A DNA stretch of 31,709 bases, taken from positions 1-31,709 of the forward strand of contig JAUWOX010000001.1 in NCBI GenBank assembly GCA_030611905.1. Reading direction: 5' to 3'. The DNA comes from a bacterium. Lineage in GTDB: Bacteria; Patescibacteriota; JABMPQ01; JAQVVF01. The translations under genes were made by a program, and so were the position numbers. Shown one piece after another: positions 7,037 to 29,231 of this stretch; the first letter of the stretch is position 1; each line of letters starts with the position of its first letter. The notes beneath the pieces were generated by a model. That model had not been told where the DNA came from, did no database searches, and saw nothing but the letters and a program-made list of their open reading frames with translations.

Positions 7037-7177
7037 TTTTAAAAATTCCAAATTACAAGATACAAGTACCAAACAAATTATAAATTACAATAATTAAATT
7101 TCAAACACGCGAATTTGAGATTTATAATTTGAAATTTGTTTGTAATTTGAGTTTTGTAATTTGGAATTTTTAAAGGG
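7037..7177. repeat. Heptamer-built (NNCAAAT-type) imperfect inverted repeat filling the inter-tRNA spacer
   Basis: 7038-7058 tttaaaaattccaaattacaa is the exact reverse complement of 7154-7174. Confidence 0.8.
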
Positions 7178-16678: not shown

Positions 16679-16780
16679 ATTACGAAAATTCCAAATTACA
16701 AATAAATTATAAATCAAAATGACTAAAATTTCAAATATTGCGTTTTAGTATTTTGAATTTGTGATTTGTGATTTTAAATA
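16679..16780. repeat. Heptamer-built (NNCAAAT-type) imperfect inverted repeat in the tRNA-Ser spacer
   Basis: aaaattccaaattacaa at 16685-16701 is identical to 7042-7058; right arm made of atttgtg/attttga units. Confidence 0.7.
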
Positions 16781-23693: not shown

Positions 23694-23813
23694 AATGTTG
23701 AAATTTCTAATATCTAATAAATAATTTCTAATTAATATCTAATTACTAATGCTCAATATCGAAATTTGTTATTAGTCATTAGAAATTGATTAGTAATTAG
23801 AAATTGGTAATTA
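23694..23813. repeat. Heptamer (NNCTAAT/ATTAGNN) inverted-repeat element
   Basis: Left arm ttctaat/atctaat/tactaat, centre atcgaaatt (23758-23766), right arm attagtc/attagaa/attagta. Confidence 0.85.
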
Positions 23814-24209: not shown

Positions 24210-24330
24210 AATATCTATCTAAATGTCTAATTTCTAATATCTAATTACTAATCAATGCCTAATGACTAATGTCTAATGCCGAAATTAGTTATTAGATATT
24301 AGGAATTGATTAGACATTAGAAATTAGTTA
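24210..24330. repeat. Heptamer inverted-repeat element
   Basis: Same architecture, centre gccgaaatt (24278-24286). Confidence 0.85.
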
Positions 24331-24846: not shown

Positions 24847-25039
24847 AATATCTAATTTCTAATATCTAATTACTAATCAATGAATAATGGCTAATGACTG
24901 CATAAATATCTAATATCTAATCAATTTCTAATTTCTAGTTACGACATTGAGCATTAGTAATTAGATATTGATTATTAATTAGTTATTAGGAATTAAAGTA
25001 GGCATTGATTAGACATTAGTAATTAGTTATTAGTAATTT
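24847..25039. repeat. Heptamer inverted-repeat element (longest, 193 nt)
   Basis: Same architecture, centre agttacgac (24937-24945; reverse complement gtcgtaact). Confidence 0.85.
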
Positions 25040-26974
25040 CTAAAGTGGTTTATAATTCACAGTAATATCTTCAAGCACCGGTGTATTAGCACCATCGCCT
25101 GTCAAAGTTAATTTATATTTGATCCAATTGTCTCCGATGTGATCTGGATTGATTATTTCGCCATTTGGATCAGTAAAATAGTCTGTTTCATCTCCATCTT
25201 CGCCTTCGGGGCCGCACCAAGTAGGTGACCATGCTCCAGGAGACCCTCCAGAATCTGGAGCTGTTTTTATTTGGACCTTGAAATCATAGGCTGGACCTGG
25301 TAAAGTTTGCGTCCATTTGAGAAGGTTGTAATTGGCCTGCGGACCAAAATCTGATGATTCATAAGTGCCGGAAAGTTGATAACCGCCAGCACTGGGAGGA
25401 AATCTAAAAGCAACATCTTGATTATTATTATCTGTCCAATTGGTTCCGCTATTATTGCTGAATGAATAAGTGGAATTAGTTGCTAAGTAATTGATACCAT
25501 TATCACTAGCGTCATTTGTATTGTCTAGTGTAAAAATTTGATAGGCTTGACCAATTGCTGTGCCGCTGGAATGGATGTAGATGCGATATTGATCGCCGTC
25601 TGTTAAGGCAATTGGGCTGTCAAAATTTACCTCGTGCCAGGCAAAAGCCGGAGTAACATCTGCTGGGGTGGCCAGGATTTTGCTGGCTAGCTGAACATCA
25701 TTAGTAACATCGTGAAGTGTGACTATAATGTCAGCCTGAGGCTCTGCGTTTGTTTTTTGCTTTACATAAAATCCAACACTAGAAACTGTTTTATTTCCGC
25801 CGCTGAGTGTAAAAATCTCGCCTTGGTAAAAAGTACTATATATATTTATTTCAGTATTTTGATAATATGGATTGCCTTCAAAAGTTGCGTCATTATATTC
25901 TAGAACATAAATTGGTTGTGTATCTTGGGCTACCCAAGAACTGCCGCTATTGTCGGTCCAAATAACATTAGAATTGGAATCAGTCGTATTGTTATAAGGA
26001 ATCCGCTGATTGCGTGGTGATGATTGTCTGATGTCGATGTATTTACCATTATTGATCTGGCCTGATTGATGCTGGATAATTAGATGATAAGTCGTACCTT
26101 GTGTTAGATCAACTGTTTCGTTTAGGCTAACAGTTTGCCATTCATCTGAAGTGGCTTTTAGATCACCATAACCATTATTGGTTCCCCCGAGCCAAGTCCC
26201 AGAAGGATCGCCGCCACTGTCTGCTTGCAATCCATAGCGATAAGTAGGACTATTGCCTTGTTCTCTATCTAGATAAACTCTAAGAGCTTCAACTGTCTTG
26301 GTATTTTGAGCTGTAAAACGAATGGAAGTCCACTTATTAGCATTGTTCATGGCATTAATTCCGCCTGTGCTTTCGACTAAAAAAGAATTGCCGTAAGTAT
26401 CACCTCCGCCGCCACCAGCAGCCAACTTCACTTCTCCGCCCGAATCATTTGTCACTTGCGTATTATTTGTTGTGCCAGTATTAAATTCTGCTTCTGTCGT
26501 TTGTGTCCATAATCCCCTGTTCCAATTTGTTAGATAGAAGGTTTGTGCAACTTGATTAGAGCGGCCAAGAGCAAAAGACCAATCTGTATTAACAACAATT
26601 TCTTTGGTTTCTATGTCATTTACACCTGCTCCGATATTGCCGCTTGCGTCACGGGTAACCTCATTAACTTCAACTGTTCGAGTAAATTTTTTCCAAGAAT
26701 TGTCAAAGCCAGCAATATCCCAAATGCCTGATGAGTTATCAAGGCCATGAGTAGCGCCGTCATCGTAATATGCTAATTTATTCCAAGCTTGATCACGGAT
26801 GCTTTGAGTTGCTTCAGATCCCTCTTGTGAATAAAGAGTTGCCTGAGTAATTTCTCCGCCTTGTCTTTCTGAAATCAGTGCGCCCAAAGCCAGCGTCATT
26901 ATTCCACCAGCTATAATAACAAAAAGCCCTAATGCTATGACTATTTCGATTAAACTTTGGCCTTTCTCCTTCAT
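25040..26974 (-). CDS. Large pilin-like protein (PilV-like N-terminus with tandem beta-rich domains), possible adhesin
   Basis: KG|QSLIEIVIALGLF prepilin motif; 644 aa, rich in Thr/Asn/Ser/Gly; two internal domains similar to each other. Confidence 0.8.
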   Translation of the reverse strand: MKEKGQSLIEIVIALGLFVIIAGGIMTLALGALISERQGGEITQATLYSQEGSEATQSIRDQAWNKLAYYDDGATHGLDNSSGIWDIAGFDNSWKKFTRTVEVNEVTRDASGNIGAGVNDIETKEIVVNTDWSFALGRSNQVAQTFYLTNWNRGLWTQTTEAEFNTGTTNNTQVTNDSGGEVKLAAGGGGGDTYGNSFLVESTGGINAMNNANKWTSIRFTAQNTKTVEALRVYLDREQGNSPTYRYGLQADSGGDPSGTWLGGTNNGYGDLKATSDEWQTVSLNETVDLTQGTTYHLIIQHQSGQINNGKYIDIRQSSPRNQRIPYNNTTDSNSNVIWTDNSGSSWVAQDTQPIYVLEYNDATFEGNPYYQNTEINIYSTFYQGEIFTLSGGNKTVSSVGFYVKQKTNAEPQADIIVTLHDVTNDVQLASKILATPADVTPAFAWHEVNFDSPIALTDGDQYRIYIHSSGTAIGQAYQIFTLDNTNDASDNGINYLATNSTYSFSNNSGTNWTDNNNQDVAFRFPPSAGGYQLSGTYESSDFGPQANYNLLKWTQTLPGPAYDFKVQIKTAPDSGGSPGAWSPTWCGPEGEDGDETDYFTDPNGEIINPDHIGDNWIKYKLTLTGDGANTPVLEDITVNYKPL

Positions 26975-27071
26975 AAATATCTAATAACTAATCAATATCT
27001 ACTTCAATTTCTAATTTCTAATAACTAATTACTAATCAATTTCTAATTTATAATGACTAAACTCTTCGAAA
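26975..27071. repeat. Heptamer element, left arm flanking the four-helix-bundle gene
   Basis: About ten NNCTAAT-type units, then ttcgaaatt (27065-27073). A short complementary arm overlaps the gene's last codons. Confidence 0.85.
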
Positions 27072-27440
27072 TTAGATATTAGTAATTTTATTCGACCTGT
27101 TTGCTGAGTGAATAATTGCATTAAAAATAAGATTCAATTCTTTTGCTTCTTTCCAAAGCATTCTGGCTTCATCTTTTTGTTCAGGGATAGCTATCGCTGT
27201 CATTCTTAGCCAATGCATTGTTTCTCTAGATTCTTTTTTGCAGATCCCAATTTTATGTTTAAAATCTTTTTTTGATTCCGCATTATCTGCCTCACAATAA
27301 TTTGCTCCAACACTTGTTCCAGATCTGGTTATCTGAGATTTTATTGATTTATTAATCGATGTTTCAGATATGCTTTTAGTAAATTTTATAATTTCTTCTC
27401 CAAATTTTGCAGTTCTTTCCTCTAAATCAAATTTGGTCAT
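27072..27440 (-). CDS. Four helix bundle protein (TIGR02436 / 23S rRNA IVP family, Avd-related fold)
   Basis: DLEERT..F, QITRSGTSVGANYCEA, S.KDFKHK.GI.KKE..ET..WL and EAKEL..IF..I motifs. Confidence 0.92.
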   Translation of the reverse strand: MTKFDLEERTAKFGEEIIKFTKSISETSINKSIKSQITRSGTSVGANYCEADNAESKKDFKHKIGICKKESRETMHWLRMTAIAIPEQKDEARMLWKEAKELNLIFNAIIHSANRSNKITNI

Positions 27441-27489
27441 TTGTCATTAGTTATTGATTAGTAATTAGATATTAGAAATTAATAATTAA
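27441..27489. repeat. Heptamer element, right arm flanking the four-helix-bundle gene
   Basis: Only ATTAGNN-type units (attagtt, attg, attagta, attagat, attagaa, attaata); no left arm of its own. Confidence 0.85.
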
Positions 27490-27933
27490 CTATTCATATT
27501 CAATTTTTCCTACACTGCTGACACTAACAGTTTTTGTTTGATTGATATTGTTGGTGATGGTTATGTTTCCAGTGTCGCTTGTTGTGCCGAAAAGTTTTTC
27601 AAAATCAACTTGATTGTTGGTAAAGCCCTGAGCAACATTGATGACATTTGGATAATCAAATTCTATGTTTTCAGAAGGATTATCGCCATAATTGTTACCG
27701 CGAAATAAGACGAATTTATTATTAGGTTCATCAAAATAGACTCCATGCATAGAGTCTTGCTCAACGGCCATTGCTTTTTGCTGCGCAAATCGAAGCGCGC
27801 TAATTATTTCACTAGTCGTGGCATCTATTTGTGTCCGGTTCGAAAAATTTCCCAAAGTAGGAATAGCCATGGCAGCTAATATTGCAATTATAGCAATTAC
27901 TAAAATTAATTCTACGAGAGTAAAGCCCTTCAT
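27490..27933 (-). CDS. FimT/GspH-like minor pilin
   Basis: KG|FTLVELILVIAIIAILAAMAIP; I..ALRFAQQKA; HGVYF; ITI.N.....V.VS.VG.I end. Confidence 0.85.
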   Translation of the reverse strand: MKGFTLVELILVIAIIAILAAMAIPTLGNFSNRTQIDATTSEIISALRFAQQKAMAVEQDSMHGVYFDEPNNKFVLFRGNNYGDNPSENIEFDYPNVINVAQGFTNNQVDFEKLFGTTSDTGNITITNNINQTKTVSVSSVGKIEYE

Positions 27934-28027
27934 GGCTTAAATTACTAATTTCTAATAACTAATTCCTAATCAATTACGAATGCCTAAATCTTTGCGTAAT
28001 TAGGCATTGATTAGATATTAGTAATTA
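27934..28027. repeat. Heptamer inverted-repeat element
   Basis: tactaat/ttctaat/aactaat/tcctaat/caat, then the attacg/cgtaat inner stem, then attg/attagat/attagta. Confidence 0.85.
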
Positions 28028-29116: not shown

Positions 29117-29231
29117 TTCTTAATATCTAATATCTAATTACTAATATCTAATCAATGTCTAATTTCTAATGACAAAATTTCGACATTAGAAATTGGGCAT
29201 TAGTAATTGATTAGTTATTAGAAATTGGTCA
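29117..29231. repeat. Heptamer inverted-repeat element
   Basis: Same architecture, centre aatttcgac (29176-29184; reverse complement gtcgaaatt). Confidence 0.85.

What the first reader, a model, noticed from the sequence alone, without database searches (positions are those of the whole stretch)
26975..27489. Four-helix-bundle gene sits in the loop of a heptamer hairpin: candidate autonomous member of the repeat family
Seen: the spacer on one side is almost entirely left-arm units and the spacer on the other is only right-arm units, so the pair forms one element with the 369-nt gene as its loop. The gene's first and last codons (MTKF, KITNI) are themselves made of repeat-like units. It interrupts an otherwise purely pilus operon. 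Established: this family was first found encoded inside the stem-loop intervening sequence of 23S rRNA, and the related Avd protein binds nucleic acid in diversity-generating retroelements. Inference: gene plus arms is a mobile or self-excising unit, and the gene-less hairpins nearby are its non-autonomous derivatives, analogous to RAYT and REPINs. The protein may bind or spread the repeats.
Basis: partly seen in the sequence, partly recalled or inferred. Interest (0 to 1): 0.75.

Follow-up and report, generated by a model that had tools for sequence, protein, structure and literature searches.

The report
Four-helix-bundle gene inside heptamer-repeat hairpin
A small gene of the family first found in ribosomal-RNA intervening sequences sits inside a long hairpin of 7-base repeats between two pilus genes, and in this group of tiny bacteria such repeat hairpins were seen only in genomes that carry this gene family.

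Summary
The 122-aa gene at 27072-27440 (minus strand) is a PF05635/TIGR02436 four-helix-bundle gene. Its two spacers each hold one arm type only, whereas the five other pilus-operon spacers hold both. The arms form a 56-nt, 82% complementary stem (RNA fold z -4.5).

One correction: the hairpin centre lies just after the stop codon. The gene therefore sits inside one arm, 16 nt from the centre, not in the loop.

- All six copies in this genome, and 29 of 35 loci examined in related genomes, have such arms, against 25 of 952 control genes.
- The orthologous junction in three sister genomes holds a GxxExxY gene in other arms, a gene-less hairpin, or a 21-nt spacer.
- Seven genomes without the gene have background levels of heptamer arrays; ten with it have 8-45 per 100 kb.
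- The gene is co-oriented with its neighbours in 87 of 90 cases.
- This genome's 23S rRNA carries ORF-less hairpins of the same kind at the classic helix-25 and helix-45 sites.

Against a REP/RAYT-like reading: unit types are far too diverse, no enzyme is evident, and no recent movement was seen.

This scan has found the same layout before on other DNA.

The parts
27072..27440 (-). PF05635 / TIGR02436 four-helix-bundle gene, 122 aa, net charge +5
27441..27489 (.). Arm on the gene's 5' side. It fills the whole spacer between the pseudopilin stop codon and the gene's ATG. ATTAGNN units on the + strand (4 ATTAG, 0 CTAAT).
   Evidence: 29 nt identical to gene-less hairpins at 24228 and 24853
26975..27061 (.). 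Arm on the gene's 3' side. NNCTAAT units on the + strand (7 CTAAT, 0 ATTAG in 26975-27071). It ends one base before the next gene's start codon.
27062..27071 (.). CG-containing hairpin centre (cttcgaaatt), directly after the stop codon. Similar centres occur in the gene-less hairpins and in the rRNA insertions.
   Evidence: sequence
27072..27087 (-). Stop codon and last five codons of the gene, made of two arm units. They can pair locally with 27027-27049.
   Evidence: (I9, I14)
27490..27933 (-). Upstream neighbour: GspH-like pseudopilin, 147 aa
   Evidence: orthologues at 77-79% identity in G001-G003
25040..26974 (-). Downstream neighbour: 644-aa pseudopilin with DUF4082 and lectin-like domains
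23695..23813 (.). Gene-less hairpin of the same unit type (5 CTAAT, 4 ATTAG)
24210..24330 (.). Gene-less hairpin of the same unit type (7/6). It shares 29 nt exactly with the element's arm.
24847..25039 (.). Double gene-less hairpin of the same unit type (8/8). It shares 29 nt exactly with the element's arm.
27934..28027 (.). Gene-less hairpin of the same unit type (4/3)
29117..29231 (.). Gene-less hairpin of the same unit type (6/4)

Best explanation
The 515-nt spacer between two pseudopilin genes is an intervening-sequence-type cassette: a PF05635 ORF enclosed by inverted arrays of 7-nt units.

Shown:
- It is an insertion relative to sister genomes.
- It lies in one arm of a hairpin belonging to the same family as the gene-less hairpins at every other junction of the operon.
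- It points the same way as the operon, as this gene family nearly always does.
- The same kind of hairpin, without an ORF, sits at the helix-25 and helix-45 loops of this genome's 23S rRNA.
- In the genomes sampled, heptamer hairpins occur only where the gene family is present.

Inferred:
- The cassette is read through as part of the pil transcript.
- Its arms pair into a stem of about 45-56 bp that closes the ORF and covers its start codon.
- RNase III, which the genome encodes, cuts this stem as it cuts rRNA intervening sequences. The insert would then be tolerated inside the transcript.
- The basic protein, which is pentameric in solved relatives, binds the heptamer hairpins. The hairpin family depends on it to arise or persist.
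- Cassettes move between hairpins by recombination within the arrays rather than through an enzyme of their own.
For: - Anatomy and fold.
- All six copies in the genome are armed.
- 29 of 35 loci in relatives are armed, against 25 of 952 controls.
- 51 of 80 loci from many phyla have flank score >= 24. Heptamer arrays number 160 in their far flanks, against 19, 36 and 21 for periods 6, 8 and 9.
- Filled, other-cargo, gene-less and near-empty alleles occur at one orthologous junction.
- 29-nt identity between cassette arm and gene-less hairpins.
- A 73%-identical protein with the same arm type sits in a different context in a sister genome.
- Unrelated lineages of the gene occupy the same sigma-factor/tRNA junction in three genomes.
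- Co-orientation in 87 of 90 cases.
- Arrays per 100 kb: 0-4 in 7 genomes without the gene, 8-45 in 10 with it.
- RNase III in 38 of 41 genomes, including this one.
- ORF-less heptamer hairpins at 23S model positions 583 and 1218.
- The Coxiella rRNA intervening sequence has a 28-bp stem, tandem heptamers before the S23p start codon, and is cut by RNase III (PMC4990558, passages read).
- 32 of 35 proteins are net basic.
- Relatives 2GSC and 2RLD each have five chains in the entry.
Against: - Stems of 90 gene-less hairpins show no bias toward G-U wobble on the sense strand (72 sense, 85 antisense; p 0.34). There is thus no sign of selection on the sense-strand RNA.
- Hairpins lie in divergent and convergent junctions about as often as junctions in general do.
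- Unit types are very diverse: 64 consensus heptamers among 131 arrays. Copies in one genome never share arms, which fits poorly with simple copying.
- No catalytic domain, no target duplication and no near-identical copies were seen.
- The co-occurrence rests on 17 related genomes, sampled at 100-400 kb each.
- MutS is a partial confound: present in 3 of the 7 array-poor genomes and in 0 of the 10 array-rich ones.
- The direction of dependence between gene and hairpins is not resolved.
- Nothing about transcription, cleavage or binding was measured.
Confidence: 0.5

Rival explanations
1. REP/RAYT-like system. The PF05635 protein itself mobilises the hairpins. The gene-carrying hairpin is the autonomous copy, and the gene-less hairpins are its non-autonomous copies.
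For: - The gene is flanked by inverted copies of the repeat.
- Gene-less hairpins greatly outnumber gene-carrying ones.
- No arrays in the 7 genomes without the gene.
- 29-nt identity between the cassette arm and gene-less hairpins.
- The rRNA insertions at helix 25 and helix 45 are paralogous copies, 110 of 157 positions identical.
Against: - A four-helix bundle has no known nuclease or recombinase motif. The nearest structures are uncharacterised.
- There are far more unit types than genes: 64 consensus heptamers among 131 arrays, against 6 genes.
- Each copy has different arms.
- Paralogues 69% identical have different arms.
- An unrelated GxxExxY gene sits in the same junction with other arms.
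- Neighbouring arrays share unit type only in G000 and G023, not in the 5 other genomes tested.
Confidence: 0.2
2. Hairpins come first and genes are passengers. Heptamer hairpins arise by replication slippage and arm-to-arm correction at AT-rich spacers, or they serve the host as intercistronic structures. Small genes (PF05635, GxxExxY) merely settle in them. The protein's function is unrelated to the repeats, for example defence.
For: - Two unrelated cargo families occupy such hairpins.
- In this operon and in G001, the cargo's arms have the unit type of the neighbouring gene-less hairpins.
- The gene lies in one arm, on either side of the centre, in different loci.
- No sense-strand G-U bias.
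- MutS was found in 0 of the 10 array-rich genomes.
- PF05635 genes are reported wedged into cas loci (PMC3936711, passages read).
- Heptamer arrays, often as inverted pairs, are described without any gene link in Xanthomonas and Nostoc (PMC4692102, passages read).
Against: - G032, G009 and G036 lack MutS and still lack arrays.
- All 10 array-rich genomes carry PF05635, whereas only 5 of those 10 have PF13366.
- 29 of 35 copies are armed, so the gene is almost never found outside arrays in this clade.
- The period is specifically 7, not 6, 8 or 9.
Confidence: 0.25
3. Chance resemblance of low-complexity AT-rich spacers, or an assembly artefact.
For: The genome is 36% G+C and is a fragmented assembly of 170 contigs.
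Against: - Score 62, against a shuffle maximum of 30.
- Fold z -4.5.
- Period 7 is specifically enriched: 137 arrays, against 13-57 at other lags.
- The same layout occurs in dozens of independent genomes.
Confidence: 0.02

Closest known systems
ORF-bearing intervening sequences of 23S rRNA (Coxiella burnetii, Leptospira; S23p ORF; Warrier et al. 2016, PMC4990558, passages read; Ralph and McClelland 1993, seen only as a citation)
   Same: Same protein family. The ORF is enclosed by terminal inverted repeats that form a long stem. Tandem heptamers lie in the stem next to the start codon. The element is transcribed as part of a host RNA. This genome's own 23S rRNA has ORF-less hairpins of this kind at the helix-25 and helix-45 loops.
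   Different: It sits between two protein-coding genes of a pilus operon, not in rRNA. Its arms are long arrays of 7-nt units shared with gene-less hairpins at the neighbouring junctions. RNase III excision is inferred here, not shown.
REP sequences / REPINs with their RAYT transposase
   Same: A gene flanked by inverted copies of a repeat that is much more abundant without the gene. The repeats were not found in the sampled genomes that lack the gene.
   Different: No HUH/Y1 transposase. Dozens of unit types per genome instead of one family of near-identical copies. Arms are tandem arrays of variable length.
Tandem heptanucleotide repeat arrays of bacterial intergenic regions (Xanthomonas GGGAATC inverted pairs and Nostoc, PMC4692102; TAACTGA repeats of Beggiatoaceae, PMC4679880)
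   Same: Intergenic arrays of 7-nt units, often as convergent pairs able to form stem-loops. Length and sequence turn over quickly between close relatives.
   Different: Those papers name no associated gene: 'four helix' and 'intervening' each occur 0 times in the two texts. Here the arrays co-occur with PF05635 genes and enclose them.
Small nuclease genes framed by their own repeats: Ssn GIY-YIG nucleases with NTS repeats (PMC11893778, abstract and outline read); GxxExxY cassettes noted earlier by this scan
   Same: A small gene bracketed by repeats that are dispersed in many gene-less copies. A GxxExxY gene occupies the orthologous junction in G001.
   Different: PF05635 has no recognised nuclease fold or motif.
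Avd, the accessory protein of diversity-generating retroelements
   Same: Homologous four-helix bundle. The G023 pil-operon copy hits NF033474 at E 2e-7, below that model's cut-off.
   Different: No reverse transcriptase was found in this genome (the assembly is 76% complete). Reverse-transcriptase presence does not follow the arrays. The window protein gives no Avd match at E <= 0.001.

Membership tests
PF05635 / TIGR02436 four-helix-bundle protein | Match to the family models above their curated cut-offs | tested here: met
   PF05635: 56.3 bits, cut-off 33.8. TIGR02436: 77.1 bits, cut-off 24.
PF05635 / TIGR02436 four-helix-bundle protein | Conserved polar motif on helix 2 (GxxRxxxSxxxNxxE in PMC3936711) | tested here: met
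   Q36, S43, N47 and E50 of the window protein are invariant, and R39 nearly so, in a 24-sequence alignment.
ORF-bearing 23S rRNA intervening sequence | S23p/PF05635 ORF enclosed by terminal inverted repeats that form a long stem | tested here: met
   56-nt arms, 82% complementary. The minimum-energy fold closes the ORF.
ORF-bearing 23S rRNA intervening sequence | Tandem heptamers in the stem next to the ORF | tested here: met
   Compare with Coxiella.
ORF-bearing 23S rRNA intervening sequence | Located in 23S rRNA (helix 25 or helix 45) | tested here: not met
   The element lies between two pseudopilin genes. ORF-less hairpins of this kind do lie at those rRNA sites in the same genome.
ORF-bearing 23S rRNA intervening sequence | Excised from the precursor by RNase III | not testable with these tools
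   An RNase III gene is present, as a partial match at a contig end. There are no transcript data.
REP / RAYT (REPIN) system | The associated gene encodes a Y1/HUH transposase | tested here: not met
   The only family matches are PF05635/TIGR02436.
REP / RAYT (REPIN) system | Many near-identical copies of one repeat type matching the gene's own flanks | tested here: not met
   64 consensus heptamers among 131 arrays. All six gene copies have different arms. The CTAAT type does have at least a dozen gene-less copies.
REP / RAYT (REPIN) system | Repeats missing from genomes that lack the gene | tested here: met
   0-4 arrays per 100 kb against 8-45, in 7 and 10 genomes. The sample is small and the genomes are related.
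Diversity-generating retroelement (Avd) | Adjacent reverse transcriptase with template and variable repeats | tested here: not met
   No PF00078 match in G000 (assembly 76% complete). The neighbours are pilus genes.

The most novel reading that the evidence does not exclude
PF05635 proteins are the trans-acting partner of a genome-wide population of heptamer-repeat hairpins. The hairpins arise or persist only where the protein is made. They colonise any transcribed spacer and the helix-25 and helix-45 loops of 23S rRNA, and some carry the gene. If so, three things are one phenomenon: the rRNA intervening sequences known since the early 1990s, the unexplained excess of heptanucleotide repeats in bacterial genomes, and this orphan protein family.
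Probability: 0.3. Interest if true: 0.85.

Novelty: new variant of a known kind. Interest (0 to 1): 0.68.

Why it matters
The origin and purpose of rRNA intervening sequences and of the S23p/PF05635 protein have stayed open since they were described (PMC4990558, discussion passages). The excess of heptanucleotide repeats in bacteria has no accepted cause (PMC4692102 and PMC4679880, passages read).

This locus shows four things side by side in one small genome:
- the gene-carrying form;
- a run of gene-less forms with identical arm segments;
- ORF-less forms at the classic rRNA sites;
- sister genomes whose same junction is empty or holds a different cargo.

Together with the presence/absence link across genomes, this gives direct experiments: protein binding to hairpins, RNase III cleavage of operon transcripts, and array gain or loss with and without the gene.

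It also matters for annotation. These genes split operons, including cas loci (PMC3936711), without belonging to them.

Tried and rejected
Reverse-transcriptase origin of the arrays (an Avd-like role). PF00078 is in 8 of 41 genomes and does not follow the arrays. G000, G001, G002, G018, G007 and G004 have arrays and no match. G029 and G032 have a match and no arrays.

Loss of mismatch repair as the sole cause. MutS is missing from G032, G009 and G036, which nevertheless lack arrays. It remains a partial confound. The test case G026 (MutS plus five copies of the gene) could not be fetched.

RNase III as a discriminator. It is present in 38 of 41 genomes, so it says nothing either way.

Sense-strand G-U bias as proof of an RNA stem. 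None was found (72 against 85).

Hairpins as terminators. They lie in all junction types in roughly the proportions of junctions in general: 90 co-directional, 14 divergent, 8 convergent, 4 genic and 6 at contig edges.

Local spread of unit types as a general rule. It holds only in G000 (47% against 16%) and G023 (32% against 22%). It does not hold in G037, G001, G002, G030 or G018.

Population-level empty sites.

Known RNA families. Only sub-threshold microRNA look-alikes matched the hairpins.

A 327-nt 'loop' between complementary arrays on C160. I first took it for a decayed cassette. It has no PF05635-like frame and is genuine 23S rRNA between two insertions.

23S gene length as a proxy for insertions across relatives. 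It is confounded by other large inserts.

Literature. The link between PF05635 and heptamer hairpins outside rRNA was not found in searches. Subscription journals are mostly outside that library. Supplementary files were not opened.

Limits.
- Gene calls are my own crude ORF calls.
- Array detection uses one threshold: 21-nt windows with at least 76% self-match.
- Only 35 of the 127 matches were examined, namely those the tool returned as loci, which are the best-scoring ones.
- The 80 loci were picked by likeness to a profile built from ten CPR proteins.
- Related genomes are not independent.

Full report
**What is at the coordinates**

The window is contig C148 of a 1.11-Mb, 170-contig, 76%-complete genome with 35.7% G+C. 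Earlier notes of this scan place it in the candidate phyla radiation.

On the minus strand lies a type IV pilus operon:
- a 563-aa ORF that I read as a PilB-type ATPase by eye only;
- a T2SSF/PilC gene;
- four genes, three of them with prepilin N-methylation motifs.

Between the 147-aa and the 644-aa pseudopilin genes sits a 122-aa ORF (27072-27440). It matches PF05635 (56.3 bits, cut-off 33.8) and TIGR02436 (77.1 bits, cut-off 24). Its nearest solved relatives are 2RLD and, for a profile of the family, 2GSC; each entry has five chains.

The spacer below the gene (26975-27071) has 7 CTAAT and no ATTAG. The spacer above it (27441-27489) has 4 ATTAG and no CTAAT. Each of the five other spacers of the operon has both.

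- The two arms are 56 nt long and 82% complementary.
- The flank score is 62, against a maximum of 30 in 100 shuffles.
- As RNA the element folds at -106 kcal/mol (z -4.51; 0 of 100 shuffles as good). A long stem closes the ORF and reaches the start codon.
- The first and last codons are made of arm units.

One correction. The CG-containing centre that the gene-less hairpins also have lies directly after the stop codon (27062-27071). Two arm units, which are the last codons, separate it from the gene body. The gene therefore lies inside one arm, 16 nt from the centre.

In other loci the centre lies on the other side of the gene (C61, L024), or the ORF is exactly the loop (for example L015).

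**The layout is the rule for this gene family in this clade**

The genome has six PF05635 genes. All six are flanked by inverted short-unit arrays, each of a different unit type. By flank complementarity they rank 4, 6, 8, 13, 22 and 24 of 987 crudely called genes. Ranks 1, 2, 3, 5 and 7 are the pil genes, which have same-type hairpins on both sides.

Of 41 related genomes, 26 have the family, with up to 17 matches and 127 matches in all. I examined the 35 loci that the tool returned. Of these, 29 have a flank score of at least 24, against 25 of 952 control genes of G000.

In 80 further loci from many phyla, chosen by likeness to a profile of ten of these proteins, 51 reach that score.

**The gene is an insertion, not part of the pilus machinery**

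The 147-aa pseudopilin has orthologues of 77-79% identity in three genomes of the same family. At the junction that follows it:

| Genome | Content of the junction |
|---|---|
| G000 | the 515-nt cassette |
| G001 | a GxxExxY gene (TIGR04256, 95.9 bits; PF13366) between inverted arms of another unit type, the type also found in that genome's gene-less hairpin one junction upstream |
| G003 | a 121-nt gene-less hairpin of a third type |
| G002 | 21 nt, including two ATTAG units like the outer part of the G000 arm |

G008 and G012 (65% and 61% identity) have short plain spacers.

Only 2 of 99 loci around homologous pilins carry the gene within the flanks. One is G023, where the copy is only 32% identical over 31 residues to the window's protein.

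The junction between a sigma factor gene and a tRNA gene is likewise occupied in G000, G023 and G004. The copies there are not each other's closest relatives: 28.6% identity, no hit, and 41%.

Conversely, the C115 copy and a G002 copy are 73% identical and share their arm type. They lie in different contexts, sigma/tRNA against a gene read by eye as a Mur ligase.

**Relation to the gene-less hairpins**

The arm on the gene's 5' side shares 29 nt exactly with the hairpins at 24228 and 24853, and a different 29 nt with a hairpin on contig C19. Cassette arms and gene-less hairpins are therefore related by descent or by conversion.

The REP/RAYT picture fails in detail.
- G000 has 64 consensus heptamers among 131 arrays, and G023 has 64 among 182.
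- Neighbouring arrays share their type clearly only in G000 and somewhat in G023.
- Paralogues 69% identical (C61, C36) have different arms.

**Genome-level link**

I sampled 100-400 kb from 16 relatives and used all of G000.

| Group | Genomes | Period-7 arrays per 100 kb | Arrays with a nearby complementary partner |
|---|---|---|---|
| No match over the Pfam cut-off | G031, G032, G029, G016, G009, G020, G036 | 0.2, 0.9, 0, 0, 4, 2, 1 (no more than periods 6, 8, 9) | 0 or 1 |
| With the gene | ten genomes | 8 to 45.5 | 3 to 120 |

The separation is complete. By my own arithmetic that is 1 chance in 19,448 for 7 against 10, before allowing for relatedness.

- PF13366 is in only 9 of the 41 genomes and is missing from several array-rich ones.
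- Reverse transcriptase does not follow the arrays.
- MutS was found in 3 of the 7 array-poor genomes and in none of the 10 array-rich ones. However, three array-poor genomes also lack it.

In the 80 loci from other phyla, stretches more than 600 nt from the gene hold 160 period-7 arrays in 1.115 Mb. Periods 6, 8 and 9 give 19, 36 and 21.

**RNA or DNA?**

For an RNA-level life:
- Where both neighbours point the same way, the gene points with them in 87 of 90 loci. It evidently relies on host transcription.
- The arms abut or overlap its start and stop codons.
- RNase III is nearly universal in these genomes.

The most telling point is in the rRNA. This genome's 23S rRNA gene (C160:1701-5175, 3475 nt against a 2925-position model) carries ORF-less heptamer hairpins exactly in the loops at model positions 583 and 1218. 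These are the helix-25 and helix-45 sites of classical intervening sequences; that naming is recalled. A third insertion lies near position 1540 and a small one near 280. The first two are paralogous: 110 of 157 positions are identical, with shared ends and centre.

Arrays also lie inside the 23S genes of G018, G004 and G002. None lies in that of G009, which lacks the gene.

Against selection on the sense-strand RNA: mismatches in 90 stems are no more often G-U on the sense strand than on the antisense strand (72 against 85). Hairpins occur in all junction types.

**Reading**

The element is best described as an intervening-sequence-type cassette living in an mRNA. It is one member of a hairpin family that, in this genome, also occupies the classical rRNA sites. 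Processing by RNase III and binding of the basic protein (32 of 35 are net positive) to the hairpins are inferences. So is the claim that the hairpins depend on the protein rather than the reverse.

**What is known**

- Warrier et al. 2016 describe the same build inside Coxiella 23S rRNA: a 28-bp stem, tandem heptamers before the S23p start codon, and an RNase III cut. They recount the old proposal that it was mobile (passages read).
- Heptamer arrays, often in inverted pairs, are described in Xanthomonas, Nostoc and Beggiatoaceae without any gene link.
- PF05635 genes wedged into cas operons were reported as cas-associated.
- My searches found no paper tying the family to heptamer hairpins outside rRNA.
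- This scan has noted the layout repeatedly on other genomes.

New here are five points: the series of gene-less hairpins with identical arm segments, the four-state orthologous junction, the presence/absence link across 17 genomes, the co-orientation count, and the ORF-less hairpins at the rRNA sites of the same genome.

Noticed in passing
G000 contig C160:1701-5175 (locus L353 1501-4975): The 23S rRNA gene is 3475 nt long against a 2925-position model. It carries ORF-less heptamer hairpins (CAAAT/ATTTG-type units) in the loops at model positions 583 and 1218. A third insertion lies near 1540 and a small one near 280. The first two are paralogous, with 110 of 157 positions identical.
   Followed up: yes
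L039 1992-2444 (G001:C1, about 252208-252660): In a sister genome, a GxxExxY gene (TIGR04256, PF13366) occupies the junction that holds the four-helix-bundle gene in the window. It lies between inverted arms of another unit type. That type also forms the gene-less hairpin one junction upstream.
   Followed up: yes
L003, L032, L018: The junction between a sigma-70-type gene and a tRNA gene holds a PF05635 cassette in three genomes of different families. The arms differ, and the proteins are not each other's closest relatives.
   Followed up: partly
L044 1040-1930 (G023:C1): In G023 the pil operon has a heptamer hairpin after pilC. It is followed by an ORF whose first ~89 residues look like a GIY-YIG nuclease by eye (no NCBIfam match) and whose frame runs into the pseudopilin. 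A PF05635 cassette follows.
   Followed up: partly
G000 contig C23:2462-3031: A 189-aa ORF that looks by eye like a REP-associated tyrosine transposase, flanked by GC-rich palindromic repeats, on a 3.2-kb contig. This would be a true REP/RAYT pair, or contamination.
   Followed up: no
window 7039-7173 and 16686-16775: Further heptamer arrays and a hairpin of the CAAAT/ATTTG unit type, the type seen in the rRNA insertions, lie elsewhere in the window.
   Followed up: no
L023 (G026): One PF05635 gene is flanked on both sides by long direct arrays of an 8-nt unit instead of inverted heptamers.
   Followed up: no
L025, L031, L026: The only three net-acidic proteins among the 35 include two of the six copies without arms (L025, L031). 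L031 is also below the Pfam cut-off.
   Followed up: no
relatives G016, G020, G031, G026, G033: MutS was found in only 5-6 of 41 of these small genomes. Among the genomes with array counts, it occurs only in array-poor ones.
   Followed up: partly
G000 contigs C108:13899-14324, C120:5248-5688, C90:9698-10156: The genome's three GxxExxY genes. The C108 copy lies between inverted CTAAT-type units. The C120 copy has an array of roughly 10-nt units on one side only.
   Followed up: partly
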